In this document: piece by piece, positions 1,954 to 61,670 of the stretch
Layout: every line of letters starts with the position of its first letter
How positions within the stretch are numbered: the stretch's first letter is position 1
Origin: Octopus sinensis
Lineage: Eukaryota
DNA: 64,000 nt
Reading direction: 5' to 3'
Assembly: GCF_006345805.1 (NCBI RefSeq)
Contig: NC_043002.1
Location: 72,912,001 to 72,976,000, forward strand
The notes under the pieces: model-generated
What the model was told of the DNA's origin: nothing
The model's database searches: none
Seen by the model: only the letters and a program-made list of their open reading frames with translations
Program-made: the position numbers and the translations under genes

Positions 1954-2304
1954 AAATTAGAAAATGGACTAATTTTAAATCTCACAATGCGAGATATTCA
2001 GCAACAGTACTTTGTAGTAAAGATTGTTTGCCAACATAACATGGTAGTCCTGGTTTAGGACTAATGTTGCTGTAATTTAGCCCCAGGAGACATTCAGTGC
2101 TGATGAAAGGAAATAACCCAGAAATCACGATACACAGGTATTGTTTTGAGCTGAGTGGGGGTGCTAGATTCCCTTGTTCAAAAATGTAAGGATACAGATT
2201 GTGTCGTGTAGCCAGCTGGAGACGATGTCTCCTGGGGCTAAATTACAGCAACATTAGTTCTAAACCAGGACTGCCATGTTATGTTGGCAAACAATCTTTA
2301 CTAC
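1954..2304. mobile_element. Fold-back element (83-bp inverted arms) with hammerhead motif in the loop; PLE-type
   Basis: Arms 2011-2093 and 2225-2307 are near-perfect reverse complements; aaacaaatgtgat is duplicated at 1941-1953 and 2305-2317. Confidence 0.75.
2095..2137 (+). ncRNA. Minimal type I hammerhead ribozyme motif (slightly degenerate)
   Basis: cagtg-CTGATGA-a-agg aaataa ccc a-GAAA-tcacga-T-A-cacag. Confidence 0.6.
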
Positions 2305-2317
2305 AAACAAATGTGAT

Positions 2318-11388: not shown

Positions 11389-11945
11389 TATACTAGCAGT
11401 ATCGCCCGGCATTGCTCGGGTTTGTAAGGGAAATAATTATATAAGCATTTTTAGAGATGTAAAGTATAATAGCCATCTCAATATGGCTAACCACAAAGGG
11501 GGAGGGGTGTTACTGTAGCTTTTTACGTTCTGAGATTTAATAATAAATTTTAGAGAGTTACTTCCCTTATATATGTCAAAAATGGATTAAAAATGGGAAA
11601 AATTGATGGTAAATTTTTTTTAAAATCGTAGACTCATCGTAGACGCGCGCTAATACCCAGACGGTCTCGATATGAATCACGACTATAAGATACCCGGTTT
11701 TGGTAAAACTGCACCGCAAAATGTGGGAGTAGTTAGGAATCTAAATCGTAGGAGACAGACACACAACCTCACTTTTATATATAAAGATTTCCTCTATTTA
11801 CATAATATTGAGGTCTCTTTCTTTCTTTTGTTATCTTACTGTTTTTACCAATATACATATATATATATAAATATATATATAGTTACAGAGATGTACTTGC
11901 ATAGCAAGTGACTTGATCTGAGATCGTGTGCTGGAACGAAAACAG

Positions 11946-12204
11946 TTGCAGCGTTGAAGGTGTTTATAAGCCATTTAAGAAACACACAAAAACCGTTAGA
12001 TTCACTTCAACATTTAAATTTAATTTGTCGAAATATTTTCGTCGCTTTGAGACCGCGACCTGTTAGCACGATATTTTTGTCAGTGAACAGGTCGCGGTCT
12101 GAAAGCGACGAAAATATTTTGGCAAATTAAATTTAAATGTTGAAGTGAATGTAACGGTTTTTGTGTGTTTCTTAAATGGCTTACAAACACCTTCCACGCT
12201 GCAA
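11946..12204. repeat. Long palindrome (119-bp arms, 21-nt spacer), PLE pseudo-LTR inversion type
   Basis: 11946-12064 is the reverse complement of 12086-12204 with few mismatches. Confidence 0.9.
12076..12126 (+). ncRNA. Type I hammerhead ribozyme motif, G3-C8 core variant
   Basis: tttgtca-GTGAACA-g-gtcgc ggtctgaaa gcgac-GAAA-atat-T-T-tggcaaa. Confidence 0.7.
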
Positions 12205-12559
12205 TATATATATACACACATATATATATATGTATGTATGTATGTGTGTATATGTGTATGCATGTATGTGTGTGTGTGTGCGTGTCTGTGCTTGTGATTG
12301 TCCTCCACCACTGCTTGACAACGAATGTTGGTTTGTTTACATCCCTGTCACCTAGTGGTTTGACAAAGGAAACAGATAGAATAAGTACAATGCTTACAAA
12401 AATAAAACTGGAGTTGATTCATTAAACTACAATTCTTCAAGGCATTGCCCCAGCATGGCCACAGACCAATGGCTGGAAAAAGCAGAAGAATAAAAGAATA
12501 CATTCTCTGCTTTGGTCATATGTTGAAGGCATGAGAAAGCTTGAGTTTACATGAGAAGG

Positions 12560-13048
12560 CCTAACAGACCTGGTAGAAACAGCAGCCAAATCTCCCTCAA
12601 ATCACACCTTACTGTCTTATGTATGTATATATGTATGTATGAGCCAATGAGGGGGACCTCTACATGGTAGCTAGACCTGGTAGAAATAGCAGCCAAATTT
12701 CCCCCAAATCACACCTTACTGTCTTATCTATGTATATATGTATGTATGAGCCTATGAGGGAGACCCCTACATGGCAGCTAGACCTGGTAGAAATAGCAGC
12801 CAAATTTCCCCCAAATCACACCTTACTGTCTTATCTATGTAATATGTATGTATGAGCCTATGAGGGAGACCCCTACATGGCAGCTAGACCTGGTAGAAAT
12901 AGCAGCCAAATTCCCCCAAATCACACCTTACTGTCTTATCTATGTATATATGTATGTATGAGCCTATGAGGGAGACCCCTACATGGCAGCTAGACATGGT
13001 AGAAATAGCAGCCAAATCTTCCTCAAATCACACCTTACTGTCTTATCT
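12560..13048. repeat. ~107-bp minisatellite, about 4.5 units
   Basis: ctacatggcagctagacctggtagaaatagcagccaaatttcccccaaatcacaccttactgtcttatc... repeated in tandem. Confidence 0.95.
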
Positions 13049-15090
13049 TTCTGCTACTTGGATATAGGTGTTATATTCGTTGTAAAAAAACTTTCCTGTC
13101 ACACACTCACGCACACGCACACACACACACACACACACGCACCCTCACACACACACACACGCGCACACCCACACACACCCACTCACACACACGCACGTTA
13201 GCTTACAATTTTATTTATATATTTGCGTGTCTGTGTGGAAAGAAGAAGTGGGAGGCAGAGTGAAAGAATCACTCACTACAGTAAGTGAATTAGTTTCATT
13301 TTATTCGTTGCCCACTGTGTGTGTGCGTTTGCGTGTGGTGTAAACCAGACTAAGAAAAGCATTTGGACACACACCAGAATGTGAGTTTTCTGTAAATTTT
13401 GCTTAACTGGAGTTTAAATTTTAAAAACTGGAGCTGGCATGACGCGATGCATTGTACTCTTAAAAATGCAAGGTAAATTGTAATTGAAGAAATCCTATAT
13501 TGTAGATTTGTATAACTCCCAAAGGGAGGCAGATAAAATCTGCCTTTTATAATAAGAGATACATACATATGTATATAGTGGTTGGTGTTAGGAAGGGTGT
13601 CCAGCTGTAGTAGCCATGCCACAACATATAACTGGAGCCTGGTGCAATTCTCTGGCCTGCCAACTCCTATCAAACTATCCAACCCATGTCAGCAAGGAAA
13701 GCAGATGTTAAATGATGACGATGATTAAATATATATATATTTTCCTTTTTTTTTTTCTTGCCTTTTGTTCATGAGAACAAGGATTCTACATACAGAATAA
13801 AGTACTCTTTACTCCAAGAAGTAGAGTGTGTTATAGTCTTCATTTTGGTAATTAGTGTGTGGGCTTAATTATTTTATGCTTCTTTTAATTGAACCTGTTT
13901 ACACGTTGTGAACGGGTTCAATTAAAAGAATCAAAACAGAATTAAATCTGTAAATTTCTCATATATGTATATATATATATACAAACATATATACATTATG
14001 TATATATATATATGTGTGTGTGTAAATATATACACACGCACATACTATATACACGTAAGGTACTCAGCAGGCAAATACAGCTCTAAAACATACGCGCACA
14101 CACACACACACACACACATATTTGTTTGTTTGATGAACATTTATTTTCCATACTTGGTGTGGGTTAGACTGGAAGATTTGAAGCAGAATTTTATAATCAG
14201 ATGCCCATCCTGTTGCCAACTTTCACCTGTTTTTTTTGCATGAAGGCTTATTTATTCCAGAGATTTTTTTAAGTGCAGATCGACCAGTCTTAAGGTCTGC
14301 AAGGAATGTCAATACCATTACTGTTCTTTTTTTTCAAGCATGGAATCACAATAATTATGGATGTGTGTGTACACACACACACACAGCCTAGAGGGCCTGT
14401 AACAAGCTTCAAAACATATGGCAATCATACATTTCAAAGTCAACATATGTAGAGAGAGTGCTTCTCCATGGAGTTGAAACTTGGACTACAAAGAAGGAAC
14501 TTGAAGAATGCTTTGATAGTAAATGCAGCAGATTTCTCGTGAAGCCTCAAAATATTTCATGGCATTAATATAAAACCAAGGAGGTGATATATAAGAATTG
14601 GTTGAGAGATAAAACACTCAAATAGTAACTTAAAGAGGAGAAACAAGAGAAGAGAACTCAACAGAACAATGACCAGGAAAGTACTTATAGAATAAGGATG
14701 AAACAGTATCTGAGAGATGAGTGAGAGGTTGAAATTTAGCTGCTGAAACAAGGGTAATAAAGTTGGAAACTGAAAGAAGGAAAGATTAGCAGAAGCTATT
14801 CTTCCTCTCCTTGAATTTCCGACTAGACACTATTTCATATAAGAGTGAAAAAGACACTTATAAAGATGAAGGGAAATATGATAATGAACTTCATACAGGG
14901 AACCAACCTTCATACTTATTTATTTAAGCTCTTTATTCCCTATGGAGTATAGGCCATAGACAGCTTTTCTACACTGTTCTTGAATCTGGACTGTCTTTTC
15001 AGTTTTCCCCTCCTAGGACTTTGGTTTTGAATTGCTGTTGATGCTTCTGTAACTTTGCTATTATCTAAGTAGGGACGTTGAGAAATCTCT

Positions 15091-28027: not shown

Positions 28028-28199
28028 AGGCGCAGGAGTGGCTGTGTGGTAAGTAGCTTGCTTACCAACCACATGGTTCCGGGTTCAGTCCCACTGTGTG
28101 GCATCTTGGGCAAGTGTCTTCTACTATAGCCTCGGGCCGACCAAAGCCTTGTGAGTGGATTTGGTAGACGGAAACTGAAAGAAGCCAGTTGTATATATG

Positions 28200-28231
<32 letters not shown>

Positions 28232-28451
28232 CGTGTATGTTTGTGTATCTGTGTTTGTCCCCCTAGCATTGCTTGACAACCGATGCTGGTGTGTTTATGT
28301 TCCCGTCACCTAGCGGTTCAGCAAAAGAGACCGATAGAATAAGTACTGGGCTTACAAAGAATAAGTCCTGGGGTTGAGTTGCTCGACTAAAAGGCGGTGC
28401 TCCAGCATGGCCGCAGTCAACTGACTGAAACAAGTAAAAGATTAAAAGAGT
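28028..28451 (+). mobile_element. Full-length CORE-like microsatellite SINE
   Basis: aggcgcaggagtggctgtgtggtaag...gggttcagtccc...aagtaaaagattaaaagagt. Confidence 0.9.
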
Positions 28452-29099
28452 AATTAGATAATTGTGCCGGCGTTGCTCGGGTTTGTAAGGGAAATAACTA
28501 TATAAGCATTTTTAGAGAGTTATAGCCAAAAAATAGCAAAAAATGCATTAAAAATGGAAAAAATATGATGGTAAATTTTTTTTTAAATCGTTGACTCATC
28601 GTAGACATTTTTAGAGAGTTACTTCCCTTATATAATAGCGAAAAAATGCATTAAAATGGAAAAAAAACGATGGTAAATTTCTTTTTAAATCGTAGACTCA
28701 TGTAGACGCTTTCTTAGCCATTTCTGTTTTGGTGTCTTCAAGCCATGAAGTCGTTGTTCTAAAAGAACACTGGTCTCCTTGACAACGCATTACGACGTTG
28801 ATTTCCTTACACTCCCTTCCCCACAGGTGCAGGTGTGAGCGTGGACGCCAACTCCGCCGCCATCGACACACGAAAAATTATGCATTAAAATGGAATAAAA
28901 AATGATGTTAAATTATTTTTAAAATCGTAGACTCATCGCAGACGCGCGCTAATATTCAGACGGGCTCGATATGAATCACGACTTTTAGCTACCCGAATTT
29001 GGTTAAACTGTACCGCAAAATGTGGGAGTAGTTAGGAATCTAAATCGAAGGGGACAGACACTCACACAACTACAGTTTTATATATATAGATATACATAG

Positions 29100-29460
29100 C
29101 GCAGTAGTGGTGAGATATGACAGCAAAGAAAAGCATACATTCACTCTCTGCATGCAATTAGACTCGGAAAGTTCGTGAGGAACCCATTGACCCAATTTGC
29201 TGACTTTTCCGATAGCACACAGGTGTCAATGAATGGTTGAATGACCAAATCCAAGCTTCTCTGCTAGTTCCTCAACAGTTACGATGATATTTTGTTCCAC
29301 CAGGGTTTTCAGGATGTCCTTGTCAAGTTCTACAGATCTTTCAGGATGAGGCTCGTCTTCTAGGCTGTAGTTTATGGCTCGGGATTTCTGGAACCACCAT
29401 TGACACTGCCTTACGCTTATTGTCCAATCCCCATATACTGCATTAATATTTCTTGTACTT
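29100..29460 (-). pseudogene. Deleted copy of the captured mariner fragment
   Basis: STRNINAVYG...LGFGHSTIH, nearly identical to 33168-33400. Confidence 0.85.
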
Positions 29461-29698
29461 TGCACACATTTATATTCTGTTATTCTTTTATATGTTTCAG
29501 CCTTGAGGTTGTGGCCATGCTGGATCATGTGTGTGTGTGTGTGTGTGTGTGTCTATCTGTCTGTCTGTCTGTATGTATATATGTATATGTATGTGTGTGA
29601 ACAATAATATTTTCAACAGATGTGTTGCAAATGTATCTGATTGTTCTCAAGCTTCAATACTGTGTGTGTGTGTATGTATGTGTGTGTATGTATGTATG

Positions 29699-29729
<31 letters not shown>

Positions 29730-30777
29730 GTGTGTGTATGTATGTGTGTGTATGTGTGTGTGTATGTATGTATGTATGTATGTATGTATGTATGTATGTA
29801 TGAGTGTATGTTTACTTTATTACTAATTACTCTCTTCCAAGAACATTTTCACTCACTCTTAGCTCTTAACTTCCCATACATTTTACTCATGTATCTATCA
29901 GCGTCATAGACAGAATACTTTCACTTTAGTCTTCCTCAAATCACTCTGTCGCTATTTACTTTCATTTTATTCGTTGCCCACTGTGTGTGTGCGTTTGCGT
30001 GTGGTGTAAACCAGACTAAGAAAAGCATTTGACACACACACCAGAATGTGAGTTTTCTGTAAATTTTGCTTAATTGGAGTTTAAATTTTAAAAACTGGAC
30101 CTGGCATGACGCGATGCATTGTACTCTAAAAAATGGTAGGTAAATTGTAATTGAAGAAATCCTATATTGTAGATTTGTATAACTCCCAAAGGGAGGCAGA
30201 TAAAATCTGCCTTTTATAATAAGAGACTAGCAGTATCGCCCGGCGTTGCTCGGGTTTGTAAGGGAAATAATTATATAAGCATTTTTAGAGATGTAAAGTA
30301 TAATAGCCATCTCAATATGGCTAACCACAAAGGGGGAGGGGTGTTACTGTAGCTTTTTACGTTCTGAGATTTAATAATAAATTTTAGAGAGTTACTTCCC
30401 TTATATATGTCAAAAATGGATTAAAAATGGGAAAAATTGATGGTAAATTTTTTTAAAAATCGTAGACTCATCGTAGACGCGCGCTAATACCCAGACGGTC
30501 TCGATATGAATCACGACTATAAGATACCCGGTTTTGGTAAAACTGCACCGCAAAATGTGGGAGTAGTTAGGAATCTAAATCGTAGGAGACAGACACACAA
30601 CCTCACTTTTATATAAAGATTTCCTCTATTTACATAATATTGAGGTCTCTTTCTTTCTTTTGTTATCTTACTGTTTTTACCAATATACATATATATATAT
30701 AAATATATATATAGTTACAGAGATGTACTTGCATAGCAAGTGACTTGATCTGAGATCGTGTGCTGGAACGAAAACAG

Positions 30778-31036
30778 TTGCAGCGTTGAAGGTGTTTATA
30801 AGCCATTTAAGAAACACACAAAAACCGTTAGATTCACTTCAACATTTAAATTTAATTTGTCGAAATATTTTCGTCGCTTTGAGACCGCGACCTGTTAGCA
30901 CGATATTTTTGTCAGTGAACAGGTCGCGGTCTGAAAGCGACGAAAATATTTTGGCAAATTAAATTTAAATGTTGAAGTGAATGTAACGGTTTTTGTGTGT
31001 TTCTTAAATGGCTTACAAACACCTTCCACGCTGCAA
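30778..31036. repeat. Second copy of the 119-bp-arm palindrome
   Basis: Matches 11946-12204 (offset 18832). Confidence 0.9.
30908..30958 (+). ncRNA. Type I hammerhead motif, G3-C8 variant (copy 2)
   Basis: Identical to 12076-12126. Confidence 0.7.
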
Positions 31037-31391
31037 TATATATATACACACATATATATATATGTATGTATGTATGTGTGTATATGTGTATGCATGTATG
31101 TGTGTGTGTGTGTGTCTGTGCTTGTGATTGTCCTCCACCACTGCTTGACAACGAATGTTGGTTTGTTTACATCCCTGTCACCTAGTGGTTTGACAAAGGA
31201 AACAGATAGAATAAGTACAATGCTTATAAAAATAAAACTGGAGTTGATTCATTAAACTACAATTCTTCAAGGCATTGCCCCAGCATGGCCACAGACCAAT
31301 GGCTGGAAAAAGCAGAAGAATAAAAGAATACATTCTCTGCTTTGGTCATATGTTGAAGGCATGAGAAAGCTTGAGTTTACATGAGAAGGCC

Positions 31392-31880
31392 TAACAGACA
31401 TGGTAGAAACAGCAGCCAAATCTCCCTCAAATCACACCTTACTGTCTTATGTATGTATATATGTATGTATGAGCCAATGAGGGGGACCTCTACATGGTAG
31501 CTAGACCTGGTAGAAATAGCAGCCAAATTTCCCCCAAATCACACCTTACTGTCTTATCTATGTATATATGTATGTATGAGCCTATGAGGGAGACCCCTAC
31601 ATGGCAGCTAGACCTGGTAGAAATAGCAGCCAAATTTCCCCCAAATCACACCTTACTGTCTTATCTATGTATATATGTATGTATGAGCCTATGAGGGAGA
31701 CCCCTACATGGCAGCTAGACCTGGTAGAAATAGCAGCCAAATTTCCCCCAAATCACACCTTACTGTCTTATCTATGTATATATGTATGTATGAGCCTATG
31801 AGGGAGACCCCTACATGGCAGCTAGACATGGTAGAAATAGCAGCCAAATCTCCCTCAAATCACACCTTACTGTCTTATCT
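31392..31880. repeat. 107-bp minisatellite (copy 2)
   Basis: The period shows in ORF starts 31494, 31601, 31708, 31815. Confidence 0.95.
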
Positions 31881-33039
31881 TTCTGCTACTTGGATATAGG
31901 TGTTATATTCGTTGTAAAAAAACTTTCCTGTCACACACTCACGCACACGCACACACACACACACACACACACGCACCCTCACACACACACACATGCGCAC
32001 ACCCACACACACCCACTCACACACACGCACGTTAGCTTACAATTTTATTTATATATTTGCGTGTCTGTGTGGAAAGAAGAAGTGGGAGGCAGAGTGAAAG
32101 AATCACTCACTACAGTATGTGAATTAGTTTCATTTTATTCGTTGCCCACTGTGTGTGTGCGTTTGCGTGTGGTGTAAACCAGACTAATAAAAGCATTTGA
32201 CACACACACCAGAATGTGAGTTTTCTGTAAATTTTGCTTAACTGGAGTTTAAATTTTTAAAACTGGAGCTGGCATGACGCGATGCATTGTACTCTTAAAA
32301 ATGCAAGGTAAATTGTAATTGAAGAAATCCTATATTGTAGATTTGTATAACTCCCAAAGGGAGGCAGATAAAATCTGCCTTTTATAATAAGACTAGCAGT
32401 ATCGCCCGGCGTTGCTCGGGTTTGTAAGGGAAATAACTATATAAGCATTTTTAGAGAGTTATAGCCAAAAAATAGCAAAAAATGCATTAAAAATGGAAAA
32501 AATATGATGGTAAATTTTTTTTTAAATCGTTGACTCATCGTAGACATTTTTAGAGAGTTACTTCCCTTATATAATAGCGAAAAAATGCATTAAAATGGAA
32601 AAAAAAAACGATGGTAAATTTTTTTTTAAATCGTAGACTCATGTAGACGCTTTCTTAGCCATTTCTGTTTTGGTGTCTTCAAGCCATGAAGTCGTTGTTC
32701 TAAAAGAACGCTGGTCTCCTTGACAACGCATTACGACGTTGATTTCCTTACACTCTCTTCCCCACAGGTGCAGGTGTGAGCGTGGACGCCAACTCCGCCG
32801 CCATCGACACACGAAAAATTATGCATTAAAATGGAATAAAAAAATGATGTTAAATTATTTTTAAAATCGTAGACTCATCGTAGACGCGCGCTAATACTCA
32901 GACGGGCTCGATATGAATCACGACTATAAGCTACCCGAATTTGGTTAAACTGCACCGCAAAATGTGGGAGTAGGTAGGAATCTAAATCGAAGGGGACAGA
33001 CACTCACACAACTACAGTTTTATATATATAGATATACAT

Positions 33040-33632
33040 AGCGCAGTAGTGGTGAGATATGACAGCAAAGAAAAGCATACATTCACTCTCTGCATGCAAT
33101 TAGACTCGGAAAGTTCGTGAGGAACCCATTGACCCAATTTGCTGACTTTTCCGATAGCACACAGGTCTCAATGAATGGTTGAATGACCAAATCCAAGCTT
33201 CTCTGCTAGTTCCTCAACAGTTACGATGAGATTTTGTTCCACCAGGGTTTTCAGGATGTCCTTGTCGAGTTCTACAGATCTTTCAGGATGAGGCTCGTCT
33301 TCTAGGCTGTAGTTTATGGCTCGGAATTTCTGGAACCACCATTGACACTGCCTTACGCTTATTGTCCAATCCCCATATACTGCATTAATATTTCTTGTAC
33401 TTTCCGTTGCGTTGTTGTCTTTATTGAACTCATAAAGCAAAATATGCTCCTTTGTTACTTCCGACATAGCTTTGAAAAAAATAGCTGTTAAAATCGAAAT
33501 GCACTCTTCAAAACTTGCACTATGAATAAGGACAAGATAAAATTACTACCTGCTTTTATAGCAAGTTAATATAAGTAGTTTATCCCATTCCCCTCTGACT
33601 TTTAGTTCAAGCTGTTGAAAAAACCGCATTAT
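33040..33632 (-). pseudogene. 5' part of a mariner (Hsmar1/SETMAR-like) transposase with TIR remnant
   Basis: MSEVTKEHILLYEF...NINAVYG..TISVRQCQWWFQKFR...SLEDEP..ERSVELD...VEELAEKLGFGHSTIH; taatgcggtttttt upstream. Confidence 0.9.
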
Positions 33633-33642
33633 TATATATATA

Positions 33643-33674
<32 letters not shown>

Positions 33675-33765
33675 CACACACACTCTCTCTCACACACACA
33701 TGCACACATTTATATTCTGTTATTCTTTTATATGTTTCAGTCTTGAGGTTGTGGCCATGCTGGAT

Positions 33766-33801
<36 letters not shown>

Positions 33802-33970
33802 TATCTGTCTGTCTGTCTGTATGTATATATGTATATGTATGTGTGTGAACAATAATATTTTCAACAGATGTGTTGCAAATGTATCTGATTGTTCTCAAGC
33901 TTCAATACTGTGTGTGTGTGTATGTGTGTGTGTGTATGTATGTATGTATATGTATGTATATGTATGTATG

Positions 33971-34001
<31 letters not shown>

Positions 34002-34557
34002 GTGTGTGTGTATGTATGTATGTGTGTGTGTATGTGTGTGTATGTATGTATGTATGTATGTATGTATGTATGTATGTATGTATGTATGTATGTATGTATG
34101 AGTGTATGTTTACTTTATTACTAACACAAGCCACTACGGTTATTTAATGTAAAGTCTTCCTCAAATCACTCTGTCGCTAATTTACTCTCTTCCAAGAACA
34201 TTTTCACTCACACTTATGTCTTAGCTTCCCATACATTTTACTCATTTTACTCAGCGTGATAGACAGAAACAAATATTACATCTAGTTTCACTTTATTCGT
34301 TGCCCACTGTGTGTGCGTTTGCGTGTGGTGTAAACCAGACTGAGAAAAGCATTTGACACACACACCAGAATGTGAGTTTTCTGTAAATTTTGCTTAATTG
34401 GAGTTTAAATTTAAAAAACTGGACCTGGCATGACGCGATGCATTGTACTCTTAAAAATGCTAGGTAAATTGTAATTGAAGAAATCCTATATTGTAGATTT
34501 GTATAACTCCCAAAGGGAGGCAGATAAAATCTGCCTTTTATAATAAGATATATATAT

Positions 34558-34611
<54 letters not shown>

Positions 34612-35856
34612 CGTGTATGTTTGTGTATCTGTGTTTGTCCCCCTAGCATTGCTTGACAACCGATGCTGGTGTGTTATGTTCCCGTCACCTAGCGGTTCAG
34701 CAAAAGAGACCGATACAATAAGTACTGGGCTTACAAAGAATAAGTCCTGGGGTTGAGTTCCTCGACTAAAAGGCGGTGCTCCAGCATGGCCGCAGTCAAC
34801 TGACTGAAACAAGTAAAAGATTAAAAGAGTAATTAGATAATTGTGGCACCTTGTTTGGTGACTCCTTGATGAGGCAACTTCTATGTAGTCACTCATCTTT
34901 CTAGAAAGTGCAGCTAAATCTTCCTCAGCTCCCATTCTACAGTATCTTTTGAAAAAGATGAAGGGTTACTTTGATACTCTAATGGCAGATATAATACATT
35001 GTTTTTCATGTTTCCTGGAGTTAGATGTCCCATTGTGGGTTGACATGCTGGATACTGAGGGGTTGGTAAGGAGTGGTCAGATGTGTTGAAATATCGGCCC
35101 ATGCATAGGAAAATACTGTGAAGGTTCTTGTGAAAGCAATTACCCATCTAATGATGGCCTGTATCACCAATGTAGCAGGTATTGCACAGTGTACATGTGA
35201 TGCAATATATGTTGTTGGCTGACTCAACCAAAAAAGAATCCCTCTTTTCTTTAGAACTGACCATGCCTTCCATTATTGTTTTTATTCTCTCTTCTCACCA
35301 TATATATATATATCATCATCATCATCATCATCGTTTAACGTCCGTTTTCCATGCTAGCATGGGTTGGACGGAAAAGAGCGCATGAGACAGCGCCAGTGGT
35401 TTCAAGGTAGGAAGAATTCAAGTAGAGTTCAGATTAACGAAGTAACCACACGGCTAATATGTATATATAAATTAATAATAAGGAGAACAGAGATTTATAT
35501 GCCGTTTTATTCTGCTGTCAATCACTTCTTTCCATTTCTGCACGTACTTATGTTTCAGCTGCAATTTCATGCACACTGCAAAATTTTGCTTCTTGGTGTG
35601 CATTTTGGTGTTAATTGCTGCTTCTTTAGGGTGCTATTAAGAGCATTTTGGATCCAATTTGAATTCAATACATTTCATACAGGTGGTGTTAGCATTGTAA
35701 AAATAGCCTAAATTCTAACCTTTTCAACCCTGCTGGTCAGAAAAACAGGCGACCAGTAGTCAGCAAGTGCATTTTTTCTTGGAGTGGTGAATGGTCATAT
35801 ATTTAGTATTTAAGGTTTCTTAATGTATGTTTATGTTATTGTTGTTGTTGTTGTCG

Positions 35857-36163: not shown

Positions 36164-36370
36164 CATTATTAAAGTGAGAAGCTGGCAGAATCATTAGCAC
36201 ACTGGACGAAATGCTTAGCGGTATTTCACCTGTTGCTATGCTCTGAGTTCAAATTGCATTACCTTTCATCTTTTTGGGGTCAATAAATTAAGTACCAGTT
36301 GACTACTGGGGTCAATGTAATCAACTATCCCTGCCCCAATTTCAGGCCTTGTCTCTATTATAGTAAGGGT

Positions 36371-36720
36371 TATTATTATTATTATTATTCAGATCACTGC
36401 TTGGAATCGAACTTGGAATCTTGGGGTTAGTAGCCCGCGCTCTTAACCACTATGCCATGAGCATATGGCATAGTGGTTAAGAGCACGGGCTACTAACCCT
36501 AAGATTCTGAGTTCAATTCCAAGCAGTGACCTGAATAATAATAATAATAACAACAACAACAACAACAACATCGAAAAATATCTTAGGAATGAGAACCCAA
36601 GTTCGAAATTCCCCCAAGACACCTGATGAAGGCTGGAGGGTATATCAGCCAAAACATTGTGTTAACAACAAAGAAGATGAGGACAAATATCTGTCAAATG
36701 TAAATAATGTAGATAATGTA
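36371..36720 (+). mobile_element. tRNA-head palindrome plus hammerhead non-autonomous retroelement
   Basis: Inverted arms 36371-36458 / 36465-36551 each carry A box tggcatagtggtt and B box gttc(g/a)attcc; hammerhead at 36618-36663; aatgt(a/g) tail repeats. Confidence 0.7.
36618..36663 (+). ncRNA. Type I hammerhead motif (G12 mutated in this copy)
   Basis: gacac-CTGATGA-a-ggctg gagggtatat cagcc-aAAA-ca-T-T-gtgtt; stems I and II pair fully. Confidence 0.7.
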
Positions 36721-37194: not shown

Positions 37195-37888
37195 TGAAAT
37201 ATATCAAGACTTAATGTGATGGTATCTGTATTTGATACAACTTCATTGATCTGCCACCATACAATTGTCACTATTTTTAATGTTTTCAATAGTACCCTAT
37301 TTGTATCTAATTATATAGTAGACTAGTTAATGAAGATAATTTCTTTCGGCATAATTAGTACATTCCTAAGCTATTGTGTCATACAGAAAATGATTAATCA
37401 GGTTAGTTAATTAATTAATGAAAATTATTTAGTATACAAGGCCAACGGGTTCAGAACGGCTGAAGGAGAGAAACAGAACTGTTAGGTTATTGTTGTTGTT
37501 GTTGTTGTTATTGCTTAACCTTAGGTCTGTACTGATTGAGCAGACTCATGAGTAAAAGCTTTCCCGTCATGACCATCCTGCCTTTTTTTTTGGTTCAAAT
37601 ATTACATATTGAATGCTACATTATCCAGTTTAGTCTTAAATATCATTCTTAAAACAATAGGATATGATTTAAGGAAACATTGGCTGTTATTTTTAGCAGG
37701 TCAAGCAACAATGTAGAGGCGGTATGAGGCTTTGATGTTCGTTTCTTTTATGTATTCCTGTCAATTAATATTCCTTGTTCTCATGTTCTTTGTCTTTTGT
37801 GCATGCATTTTGTAACAAGCTAACAGGTACATAATATGTTTGTTAGGCATGACTTTGTGGTTAAAAAGCTTGCTTTGCTTTGCTTCCA

Positions 37889-51799: not shown

Positions 51800-51850
<51 letters not shown>

Positions 51851-51853
<3 letters not shown>

Positions 51854-52272
51854 AAGAATTCACAAAAAAACAAAAGACAAAGACAGGTGGTGTAGACAAC
51901 AAACATGTATTAGTTTAACGCTCGGGAAGTGAAAAAGTCTTTAACATTTCGAGCCTGCACTCTTCCACAGAAAGGAATACAGAAAGAAACAAGGAGAGAA
52001 AATAAAGAATGTGTAGTGGCTAGCGATCTGTCATGGCGAAGGCCGGACAGAAGGGTCACACAAGAGAACTAGGGAGAAGGGGAGATAATAAAGTAGTGGT
52101 AATCCCAAAACAAAGGTGTGCATATGTGTGTATTAGTATGTATGTGCATGTGGAAGAGGGCTGGTGACCTTGACATGTGCGTGTGTCTATGTGTAGGTGT
52201 GCGGATGTGGGGCTGGGAAGTGGTCAGTGCTAGTGTGTGCATTGTGGTGTGATGTGATGTGGTGTTGTGTGG
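51851..52272 (-). mobile_element. Penelope-like element 3' end inserted in the (TA)n of a CORE-like SINE (51610-52483)
   Basis: Homologous to about 61170-61670; flanked by (TA)n on both sides; carries a hammerhead. Confidence 0.8.
51939..51974 (-). ncRNA. Hammerhead motif, U6 core variant
   Basis: Minus strand cttt-CTGTGGA-a-gagt gcag gctc-GAAA-tg-T-T-aaag. Confidence 0.6.
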
Positions 52273-60812: not shown

Positions 60813-61670
60813 GCAGAGCACCTCTGAGGCATCAGATTCGGTAATGACACCCTGGTCTTGCACCATTTCTGCTCTACTGGTCATTCACTACAACACATGT
60901 CTGTGTTCAGACTATCTTTGTGCAGGGGCCATCTGGACTCCTATCTTCGCTGTGAACAGGAATTAATCTTCTCTCTTTGCTCCTTTGCACCACATGGGTT
61001 CAACTCCCCTCCTCTTTTCATCTGACACCTACTTCCTCTCTTCATTCCTACCTACCTTCTTTCTTCATTGATACCACCCTGCTCCTACTCCCACCCACAC
61101 CTACCCCACATCTCCACACCCACCCCTCCACACCCACCCTACCCCACATTCCCACACCTCACCCTACCCCACATCTCACACCACCACACTGCACTACGCC
61201 ATACCACTCCACACACTCACTAGCACTGACCACTTCCCAGTACCCACACCGCACACCATCATCTGCACACCCACACACAATCTTCAATAACATCACCACA
61301 CACACCATATATAAGCAGCCACACGTTACAAACACATGCACACACCCACACATGTTAAAGTCACTAGCCCCTATCCACACACACACACACATATGCACCT
61401 TCATTTTGGGATCAACAATACTTTATTATCTCCCCTTCCTTCAACCTCTTCTTTCAAACTTTTTTCCAAATCAGTCACCATGATTGACCACTAAATCCAC
61501 AATTTTTAAAAAATTCTCTCTGTTTATTTTTTCTTATTCCTTTCCGTTGAAGAGCATAGGCTTGAAACATAAAAGACTTTTACACTTTCCCGAATCTCAA
61601 ACTAATACACCTGCTTGTTGTTCATACACCTGTTTCTTCTTTTGTTTTTCTATAAATTTCAACAATAGTA
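60813..61670 (+). mobile_element. Penelope-like element 3' fragment: GIY-YIG endonuclease C-terminus (60813-61025), C/A-rich UTR and hammerhead end
   Basis: AEHL*GIRFGNDTLVLHHFCSTGHSLQHMSVF...LRCEQELIFSLCSFAPHGFN matches the PLE pattern EH...HF...H...E...I..L....P.GLN. Confidence 0.85.
61540..61575 (+). ncRNA. Hammerhead motif, U6 variant (degenerate)
   Basis: cttt-CcGTTGA-a-gagc atag gctt-GAAA-ca-T-A-aaag. Confidence 0.55.

What the first reader, a model, noticed from the sequence alone, without database searches (positions are those of the whole stretch)
11393..13559. Composite Helitron that captured ~1.5 kb of foreign DNA including a ribozyme palindrome, a SINE half and a minisatellite
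Seen (minus strand): an outer 5' end A|TCTCTTATTATAAAAGGCAG with a subterminal hairpin (ggcagat-ttt-atctgcc), then cargo, then a complete inner Helitron (11787-11393) supplying the hairpin-CTAG|T end. The unit sits in TA-rich microsatellite with no TSD and recurs almost unchanged at 30227-32392 with different flanks. Known: Helitrons capture DNA by 3'-end bypass or new end pairing. Inference: rolling-circle transposition is spreading a retroelement-derived hammerhead.
Basis: partly seen in the sequence, partly recalled or inferred. Interest (0 to 1): 0.7.

Follow-up and report, generated by a model that had tools for sequence, protein, structure and literature searches.

The report
Composite Helitron carrying variant Penelope hammerhead
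A 2.2-kb block bounded by rolling-circle transposon (Helitron) ends occurs twice in this probably octopus DNA and carries ordinary repeat debris, including a fold-back piece of a Penelope retrotransposon whose hammerhead-ribozyme motif has an unusual swapped core base pair; the block was likely copied by Helitron read-through, and the ribozyme is likely a silent passenger.

Summary
The anatomy is real. Two copies of the unit differ by 10 substitutions and 7 indels. Homology starts at a 5'-TC Helitron end and stops at the CTAG of an inner Helitron, whose ends recur in hundreds of contigs. Corrections: copy 2 is not at an A|T site but inside a head-to-tail array of other composite Helitrons, so recombination could also have placed it; the cargo is common host repeats, not foreign DNA. 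The palindrome is an inverted Penelope-like (PLE) insertion: its long arm encodes the first 31 codons of an Octopus PLE protein. It holds one complete minimal type I hammerhead motif (+ strand, 12076-12126; 0 hits in 200 shuffles) with a G3:C8 core pair in place of C3:G8, apparently the majority state of this high-copy family. I found no natural G3:C8 example in print (limited library). 'Helitrons are spreading the hammerhead' is unsupported: two copies are known, the PLE family is already abundant, and the palindrome is predicted to sequester the fold. Ordinary composite Helitron; mildly interesting ribozyme variant.

The parts
11393..13559 (-). Unit U, copy 1: composite non-autonomous Helitron, A|TC ... 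CTAG|T, in TA-rich microsatellite
13290..13559 (-). Segment A: Helitron-type 5' end, shared by four units in the window (starts 13559, 32392, 30226, 34548); 3-8 substitutions between copies; no own hairpin-CTRR terminator found
   Evidence: high copy in contigs, and other genomic copies run on about 20 nt further like U (9 contigs in X3)
13527..13545 (-). 5' subterminal 8-bp hairpin of segment A
   Evidence: z -2.9
13049..13289 (.). Unclassified spacer with a (TG)n tract at 13100-13196; no other copy in the window outside U
12566..13048 (.). Minisatellite, 107 bp x 4.5; unit related (76-85%) to dispersed single copies at 37650, 47724, 59381
12220..12500 (+). Tail half of a common SINE-like repeat; the half with the tRNA-like A/B-box head is absent (head seen in the full copy at about 28040)
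   Evidence: box identity judged by eye from recalled consensus
12065..12204 (+). PLE short arm: starts about 11 nt before hammerhead stem I, ends after codon 10 of the PLE ORF in (TA)n
12076..12126 (+). Minimal type I hammerhead motif: 7-bp stem I, core with G3 (12083):C8 (12088), extra G after A9, 5-bp stem II with G10.1-C11.1, GAAA, palindromic stem III, U17
11882..12064 (-). PLE long arm: hammerhead truncated (G3-U4-G5 missing), ORF codons 1-31 at 11974-11882, including a 64-nt extension ('tail') absent from the other arm; ends in (TA)n
11788..11881 (.). (TA)n plus a 63-nt stub of another high-copy repeat, cut by the inner Helitron
11393..11787 (-). Inner Helitron C: own A|TC start, imperfect hairpin 11420-11405, CTAG end; supplies U's terminator
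   Evidence: 390 (X1) and 478 (X3) contigs leave the stretch at its 3' end with mixed flanks, 60 (X1) at its 5' end
30227..32392 (-). Unit U, copy 2, joined head-to-tail (CTAG|TC) on both sides; hammerhead motif at 30908-30958 (+)
32393..34548 (-). Second composite Helitron: segment A + region X + mariner transposase fragment + inner Helitron B (33032-32393), relative of C
28467..30226 (-). Second copy of the A-X-mariner-B composite, with a 298-nt deletion and the last 13-14 nt of the 3' end missing

Best explanation
A 2.2-kb block that begins with a Helitron 5' end and finishes with a complete inner Helitron lies twice in the window, and it was likely created when a transposase supplied in trans started at the outer end, read through 1.5 kb of ordinary repeat-rich DNA and stopped at the inner element's hairpin-CTAG. 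Steps: (1) shown: segment A has no terminator of its own here, and all 4 A starts in the window run to a B/C-type 3' end 1.8-2.2 kb downstream, with two different cargoes; (2) inferred: end bypass made the composite, and copy 1 was inserted at A|T in a microsatellite; (3) inferred: copy 2 entered a head-to-tail array of the other composite by recombination in the shared ends, either from a circular intermediate or by conversion (direction between copy 1 and copy 2 is not resolved); (4) shown: the palindrome is an older inverted insertion of a Penelope-like element (arms differ at 6 of 119 sites, identically in both copies), ending inside its ORF start with a tail at one end; (5) predicted: its hammerhead motif is a slow, dimer-dependent ribozyme in the parent PLE, but is dead in this unit because one arm lacks the core and the other is locked in the palindrome.
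For: Homology of the two copies begins at TC and ends at CTAG. Copy 1's flanks are both TA-rich microsatellite meeting at A|T. The inner element's ends are true mobile ends: 390 and 478 contigs leave at CTAG|T with mixed flanks (agreement 0.43-0.44), 60 at A|TC. No other convincing hairpin-CTRR terminator lies inside U (4 candidates printed, the GC-rich one with correct spacing is C's end). 10 substitutions separate the copies, most outside homopolymer edges. End bypass, circles with CTAG|TC joints, AT preference and abutting Helitrons are documented for Helraiser and bat Helitrons (PMC4778049). PLE link: window codons 1-31 are 90% identical to the start of P0028 (O. sinensis) and 21 of 24 to P0027 (O. 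bimaculoides); these overlap P0029/P0030 (O. vulgaris), whose nearest Atlas clusters carry DUF8422, HTH_animal, RVT_1 and GIY-YIG. Inverted truncated copy, one-sided tail and (TA)n target match PLE structure (PMC8557442; PMC11167929). Hammerhead descriptor: 2 hits in the window, 0 in 200 shuffles. Stems I and II: probability 0.00 with both arms present.
Against: Only two copies are known and no genome was available. Copy 2 has Helitron homology on both sides, so it is no independent proof of transposition. Copy 1's flanks are low-complexity, so A|T and the lack of a TSD are weak tests, and its start could be read 2 nt later at C|T. No empty site was seen. One search gave no count for the cargo/C junction and no listed contig spans the stretch; the two raw-read runs laid only 7 and 159 of 12.9 million reads each and were useless for copy number. 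No autonomous RepHel partner was tested. Pfam itself found no RT domain in P0029 or P0030, the link runs through predicted gene models, and P0028 is a chimeric model. The descriptor was written after I saw the motif. No covariation in the stems was seen; activity is untested.
Confidence: 0.6

Rival explanations
1. U never transposed as a unit. A and C inserted separately 1.5 kb apart at locus 1, and the block was copied once into the array by gene conversion or template switching primed in the shared A segment and resolved in the shared last 44 nt of the B/C end.
For: Both junctions of copy 2 lie in sequence homologous to the array's own ends. Copy 2 starts like A4 (2 nt shorter) but has U-type internal variants from about position 95, as expected from a switch inside A; one of its last 20 nt matches B rather than copy 1. 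The copies are only 19 kb apart.
Against: Copy 1's two flanks read as one interrupted TA microsatellite, which two independent insertions would not give. The second composite (A-X-mariner-B) shows the same A-to-B/C pairing with a mariner cut off at the Helitron, so read-through capture occurs in this family. The 2-nt marker sits in a dinucleotide repeat and can slip.
Confidence: 0.25
2. U is a successful Helitron family with many genomic copies, and it spreads a working hammerhead.
For: The copies are young (0.5% apart). 16 of 24 listed runs hold half or more of the words of the unit. A 2-nt gap called at 30222 in 14 (X1) and 7 (X3) contigs suggests that CTAG|TC joints to A recur elsewhere (not a copy number).
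Against: Word sharing is explained by the high-copy parts. The PLE family is abundant without U, and other fold-back copies with different breakpoints exist (joints 30784-30854 to 30905-30914). The fold is sequestered in U and needs a partner for stem III (PMC4209133).
Confidence: 0.1
3. The duplication or the array is an assembly artefact.
For: Several differences are 1-2 nt indels in repeats, typical of long-read error. No listed contig spans the stretch.
Against: 10 substitutions between the U copies and 13 of 998 between the mariner-B copies; breakpoints fall exactly on TC and CTAG; both continuations of A also occur in independent contigs.
Confidence: 0.05

Closest known systems
Non-autonomous composite Helitron1 elements made by 3'-end bypass (Helraiser experiments and Helibat exemplars; Grabundzija et al. 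2016, PMC4778049, passages and section 12 read)
   Same: 5'-TC start, hairpin plus CTAG end, A|T site, no TSD, capture of adjacent DNA, new 3' end taken from a neighbouring Helitron, 5' end abutting another element's 3' end.
   Different: Cargo is repeat debris, not gene fragments; two different composites share one 5' segment and alternate in a three-unit array; segment A has a 5' hairpin; only two copies are documented.
Head-to-tail Helitron junctions and tandem arrays (Grabundzija et al. 2018, PMC5876387, passages; Xenopus arrays, PMC12001565, passages)
   Same: Precise CTAG|TC joints.
   Different: The array is mixed (AXMB-U-AXMB), its last 3' end is truncated, and it is framed by a duplicated SINE half of about 250-280 bp.
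Inverted pLTR insertions of endonuclease-positive Penelope-like elements (Craig et al. 2021, PMC8557442, passages; Poseidon PAc, Frangieh et al. 2024, PMC11167929, passages)
   Same: Inverted 5'-truncated copy next to a direct one, ends inside the ORF start, tail at one end only, (TA)n target, hammerhead just upstream of the ORF start.
   Different: Tail is 64 nt rather than 30-40; the ATG lies 93 nt after G3 rather than at stem II; the PLE clade was not determined.
Minimal type I hammerheads of metazoan PLEs (Cervera and de la Pena 2014, PMC4209133, parts 1-2 of 4 and supplement passages)
   Same: U-rich lead-in, extra nucleotide between A9 and 10.1, G10.1-C11.1, palindromic stem III, U at 17 (frequent in their alignment), AU-rich downstream, paired motifs on opposite strands.
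   Different: Core pair is G3:C8; their text reports C3:G8 and U3:A8 only, and Perreault et al. 2011 (PMC3088659, section 8) report natural U3:A8. The extra nucleotide is G where their consensus has H. Stem I is longer (7 bp).

Membership tests
Helitron1 (canonical), non-autonomous | 5'-TC terminus | tested here: met
   13559 and 32392; inner start 11787 backed by 60 contigs
Helitron1 (canonical), non-autonomous | 3' hairpin followed by CTRR | tested here: met
   Imperfect hairpin 11420-11405, CTAG at 11396-11393; weak by energy but a true end in 390 and 478 contigs
Helitron1 (canonical), non-autonomous | Insertion between A and T without TSD | tested here: inconclusive
   Met for copy 1 in low-complexity DNA; not met for copy 2 (G|T, head-to-tail)
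Helitron1 (canonical), non-autonomous | Composite moved as a unit: several copies with both ends, empty sites | tested here: inconclusive
   Two copies only; no genome; junction not counted
Helitron1 (canonical), non-autonomous | Autonomous RepHel partner with matching ends | not testable with these tools
   No eukaryotic genome collection; recently active Helitrons are reported in O. vulgaris (8 families, 178 insertions; PMC13282606)
Helentron / DINE-1-like (Helitron2) | Subterminal inverted repeats at both ends and TT target (recalled definition) | tested here: not met
   A has a 5' hairpin, but ends are TC and CTAG at A|T; no paired subterminal repeats among the 25 longest of 311 inverted pairs
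Penelope-like element (EN+) | Linked to an ORF with PLE-type RT and GIY-YIG | tested here: met
   Indirect chain: window codons 1-31 = start of P0028 (90%), overlapping P0029/P0030; Atlas neighbours carry DUF8422, HTH_animal, RVT_1, GIY-YIG. Pfam scan of P0029/P0030 alone was blank; GIY-YIG not seen in these partial models
Penelope-like element (EN+) | Inverted truncated pLTR copy with a tail at one end | tested here: met
   Arms end at codon 10 and codon 31, both in (TA)n
Minimal type I hammerhead ribozyme | Stems I and II, GAAA, A15.1-U16.1, H17, palindromic stem III | tested here: met
   7-bp and 5-bp stems, U17; 0 of 200 shuffles
Minimal type I hammerhead ribozyme | Canonical C3-U4-G5-A6-N7-G8-A9 core | tested here: not met
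   G3 and C8 instead; the Watson-Crick pair is kept. The engineered C3G/G8C double mutant is partly active (PMC11167929). No Rfam match
Minimal type I hammerhead ribozyme | Self-cleavage at N17 | not testable with these tools
   Needs a cleavage assay; no RNA holder was listed
Non-LTR retrozyme | Tandem 170-400 nt repeats each with a hammerhead | tested here: not met
   One motif per unit, inverted not tandem; the minisatellite has no descriptor hit

The most novel reading that the evidence does not exclude
An abundant octopus Penelope family carries an active natural hammerhead with a swapped G3:C8 core pair that standard CUGANGA/UUGANAA descriptors and Rfam miss, so a hidden class of genomic hammerheads exists. 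The swap may be forced by an overlapping splice acceptor (U-rich tract then CAG at 12081-12083, a second CAG at 12088-12090), as the intron end maps to helix I in D. virilis Penelope; splicing and self-cleavage would then be alternative fates of the PLE RNA. In addition, terminator-less Helitron 5' ends would systematically borrow B/C ends and build mixed head-to-tail arrays through circles.
Probability: 0.2. Interest if true: 0.55.

Novelty: new variant of a known kind. Interest (0 to 1): 0.3.

Why it matters
The composite Helitron itself is ordinary and shows one class of mobile element carrying debris of three others. The part worth keeping is the ribozyme: a natural, apparently family-wide G3:C8 core would be the evolutionary counterpart of the classic C3G/G8C rescue mutant, would be invisible to the usual hammerhead searches, and is cheap to test. 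The mixed array with exact CTAG|TC joints is a small genomic trace of how Helitron ends are re-paired.

Tried and rejected
No whole genome is held, so no genome-wide BLAST or empty-site search. Rfam: no ribozyme; miRNA hits are generic hairpins and microsatellites. Exact-pattern scan of metagenome contigs gave 2 loci, both chance matches in prokaryotic coding DNA; viral contigs gave 0. Raw-read runs X23 and X24 laid 7 and 159 reads of 12.9 million each, with many differences: probably a more distant animal, not used for copy number. No RNA holder listed; expression untested. The antisense 49-codon frame over the long arm had no homolog. P0026, the second of 2 phmmer hits, is a chance match to a bacterial Ig-repeat protein. 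Atlas search of P0027 30-167 gave only scores under 0.8; PDB search of P0030 was blank. ARAGORN found no tRNA gene. I considered segment A a complete short Helitron ending at the CTAR near 13290 and dropped it: no hairpin, and other copies continue in family sequence. Transposase-guided insertion of copy 2 at the G|T joint predicts the long start on copy 2 and the short start on A3; the opposite is seen, on one slippage-prone marker. Earlier-findings look-ups by sequence and place were empty. Natural G3:C8 in print: searches found only engineered mutants and natural U3:A8; Hammann et al. 2012 was not held, supplement file 1 of PMC4209133 was not searchable, and subscription papers are missing, so absence from print is not established.
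Full report
Setting. The window is repeat-rich animal DNA, about 37% GC. It is probably from an octopus: the only named protein among 25 hits to a mariner fragment is from Octopus sinensis (66%), and the named relatives of the PLE ORF start are from O. bimaculoides, O. sinensis and O. vulgaris. No whole genome is held.

The unit and its copy. On the minus strand the unit runs from A|TC at 13559 to CTAG|T at 11393. An 8-bp hairpin lies at 13545-13527 (z -2.9). The second copy, 32392-30227, aligns at 99.1% with 10 substitutions and 7 indels. Copy 1's flanks are both TA-rich microsatellite. The inner element C (11787-11393) has its own A|TC start. Laying Logan contigs on window 29850-30985 (54,393 records laid from X1, 40,891 from X3) shows that its ends are real mobile ends: 390 and 478 contigs leave the stretch just past CTAG|T with mixed flanks, and 60 leave at the 5' end. 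The terminal hairpin is weak by energy alone (85 of 200 shuffles as stable).

Copy 2 is the middle unit of a head-to-tail array. On the minus strand: unique flank, SINE tail half (34845-34601), (TA)n, then A4-X-mariner fragment-Helitron B1 (34548-32393), CTAG|TC, unit U, CTAG|TC, A3-X-mariner-B2 (30226-28467, last 13-14 nt missing), then the same SINE half again (2 substitutions in 246) followed by the rest of the SINE. B and C share their first 200 and last 50 bases. So all 4 A starts in the window are paired with a B/C end, with two different cargoes, and I found no terminator belonging to A. Copy 2 and A4 begin 2 nt shorter than copy 1 and A3, whereas internal variants group copy 1 with copy 2 and A3 with A4. 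That swap is what a crossover in the first 95 nt of A would leave, whether from a circular intermediate, a pop-out from the array, or gene conversion. It rests on one slippage-prone marker. A 2-nt gap at 30222 in 14 (X1) and 7 (X3) contigs suggests that such joints recur in the genome (inference, since a gap call needs the contig to continue into CTAG; depths are not copy numbers).

The cargo is ordinary host DNA. It holds a (TG)n tract and a 107-bp x 4.5 minisatellite whose unit resembles three dispersed single copies; the tail half of a SINE-like repeat about 73% identical to the best other copies; the palindrome; and a stub of another high-copy repeat. Nine contigs of X3 continue past A's first 270 nt like U for about 20 nt, and 16 continue like A4, so the captured part starts a little later than 13290.

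The palindrome is a Penelope-like insertion. Arms of 119 nt, 95% complementary, fold at -197 kcal/mol, 0 of 200 shuffles. The long arm contains an ATG-started frame at 11974-11882. Searched against 1.84 billion proteins it gave 2 hits: one chance match and P0027, an O. bimaculoides protein, 21 of 24 residues identical. P0027's later part found 2 of 226 candidates: P0028 (O. sinensis), which begins with the window's 31 residues at 90% identity, and P0029 (O. vulgaris). P0029's cluster mate P0030 shows motifs I recall as PLE-type RT motifs, and its nearest Atlas clusters carry DUF8422, HTH_animal, RVT_1 and GIY-YIG (scores 0.93-0.97). Pfam alone did not hit P0029 or P0030, and these are predicted gene models, P0028 a chimeric one. 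The short arm ends after codon 10 and the long arm after codon 31, both in (TA)n. This is the inverted-copy-plus-one-sided-tail pattern described by Craig et al. (PMC8557442, passages), and copy ends inside the ORF start match the internal RT start sites of Poseidon PAc (PMC11167929, passages). Contigs that jump from 30784-30854 to 30905-30914 are likely other fold-back copies with other breakpoints, and 152 contigs of X1 leave the stretch before 30907 with mixed upstream sequence. The arms differ from each other at 6 of 119 sites but are identical between the two U copies, so the insertion predates the duplication.

The hammerhead. Rfam finds none. A descriptor allowing any Watson-Crick 3:8 pair finds exactly two hits in the window, at 12083 and 30915 on the plus strand, and 0 in 200 block-wise dinucleotide shuffles of the window, both strands (descriptor written after I saw the motif). 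The motif has a 7-bp stem I, an extra nucleotide after A9, G10.1-C11.1, a 5-bp stem II, a palindromic stem III and U17. These are the hallmarks listed for PLE minimal hammerheads (PMC4209133, parts 1-2 of 4; consensus line in the supplement), except that the core pair is G3:C8 and the extra base is G. In one search no variant is listed at G3 (30915) or C8 (30920), loop II position 30933 is the variable one (G replaced in about 88% of depth in X1), and 94-96% of depth at 30862 restores the first pair of stem I that the long arm has lost. 24 further variant rows were not shown, and reads were selected at 88% likeness, so this shows a majority state, not covariation. C8 is also present in the long arm. 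Natural covariation to U3:A8 is published (PMC3088659, section 8; PMC4209133); the C3G/G8C double mutant is partly active (PMC11167929; a G3-C8 variant is also mentioned in PMC3884650). My searches and passages of PMC7229834, PMC6962438, PMC6155905 and bioRxiv 10.64898/2026.07.22.740005 showed no natural G3:C8 case; the library is incomplete and one key review was not held.

Is it being spread, and can it work here? With both arms present the two stems have pairing probability 0.00; alone they reach 0.27-0.37. On the plus strand the antisense arm is transcribed first; on the minus strand the core is truncated. The family is abundant without U. Only two copies of U are known, and one search gave no count for its cargo/C junction; the raw-read runs were uninformative (7 and 159 reads laid). 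20 of 24 listed runs hold part of the unit, 16 of them half or more of its words, which the high-copy parts can explain.

Mechanism and odds. Most likely (0.6) a RepHel supplied in trans started at A, found no terminator and ran on to C, as shown for Helraiser (PMC4778049); copy 1 is a normal A|T insertion and copy 2 entered the array by recombination in the shared ends. Circles with exact CTAG|TC joints and tandem arrays are known (PMC4778049; PMC5876387, passages; PMC12001565, passages), and Helitrons are recently active in O. vulgaris (PMC13282606, passages). The main rival (0.25) is assembly in place plus one conversion event. A widespread ribozyme-spreading family (0.1) and an assembly artefact (0.05) are less likely.

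Verdict. The one unusual item is the G3:C8 hammerhead core of the parent PLE family, untested for activity. Interest 0.3.

Noticed in passing
window 28043-34845: The Helitron array is framed by a direct duplication of about 250-280 bp of SINE tail half (2 substitutions in 246), with a clean A|TC join at one end and a truncated 3' end at the other: it looks like an insertion whose 3' end was resolved by template switching, giving a long pseudo-TSD.
   Followed up: partly
window 33045-33458 (-) and 29102-29461 (-): Mariner (Mos1-type HTH_48) transposase 5' fragment captured in the second composite Helitron and cut off at Helitron B; it has an internal stop codon.
   Followed up: partly
window 51850-52200 (+) and 61332-61658 (-): Two 70%-identical copies of another repeat next to (TA)n with a degenerate hammerhead-like stretch (about 51880-51960 on -, 61540-61620 on +); neither passes the descriptor. 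Possibly a second PLE family.
   Followed up: no
window 36369-36554: A 186-bp palindrome (90%) made of two tRNA-like SINE heads in inverted orientation, flanked by (TAA)n on both sides.
   Followed up: no
window 2011-2307 and 2702-2834: Inverted repeats: 83-bp arms at 97.6% around a 130-bp spacer, and an older 133-bp palindrome (77%).
   Followed up: no
window 41685 onwards (+): Another Helitron-like 5' end (A|TC followed by a TATA-rich run) in a TA tract; no CTAG end was looked for.
   Followed up: no
window 12077-12090 (+): The hammerhead's lead-in and variant core contain two CAG triplets after a U-rich tract, resembling splice acceptors; in D. virilis Penelope the intron end maps to helix I (PMC4209133).
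   Followed up: no
window 30907: 152 contigs leave the stretch just before hammerhead stem I with mixed upstream sequence, suggesting that many short PLE copies begin close to the ribozyme's upstream edge.
   Followed up: partly
P0028 (XP_029654200.2): An O. sinensis gene model that fuses the PLE ORF start to a methyltransferase fragment; probably a chimeric annotation.
   Followed up: no
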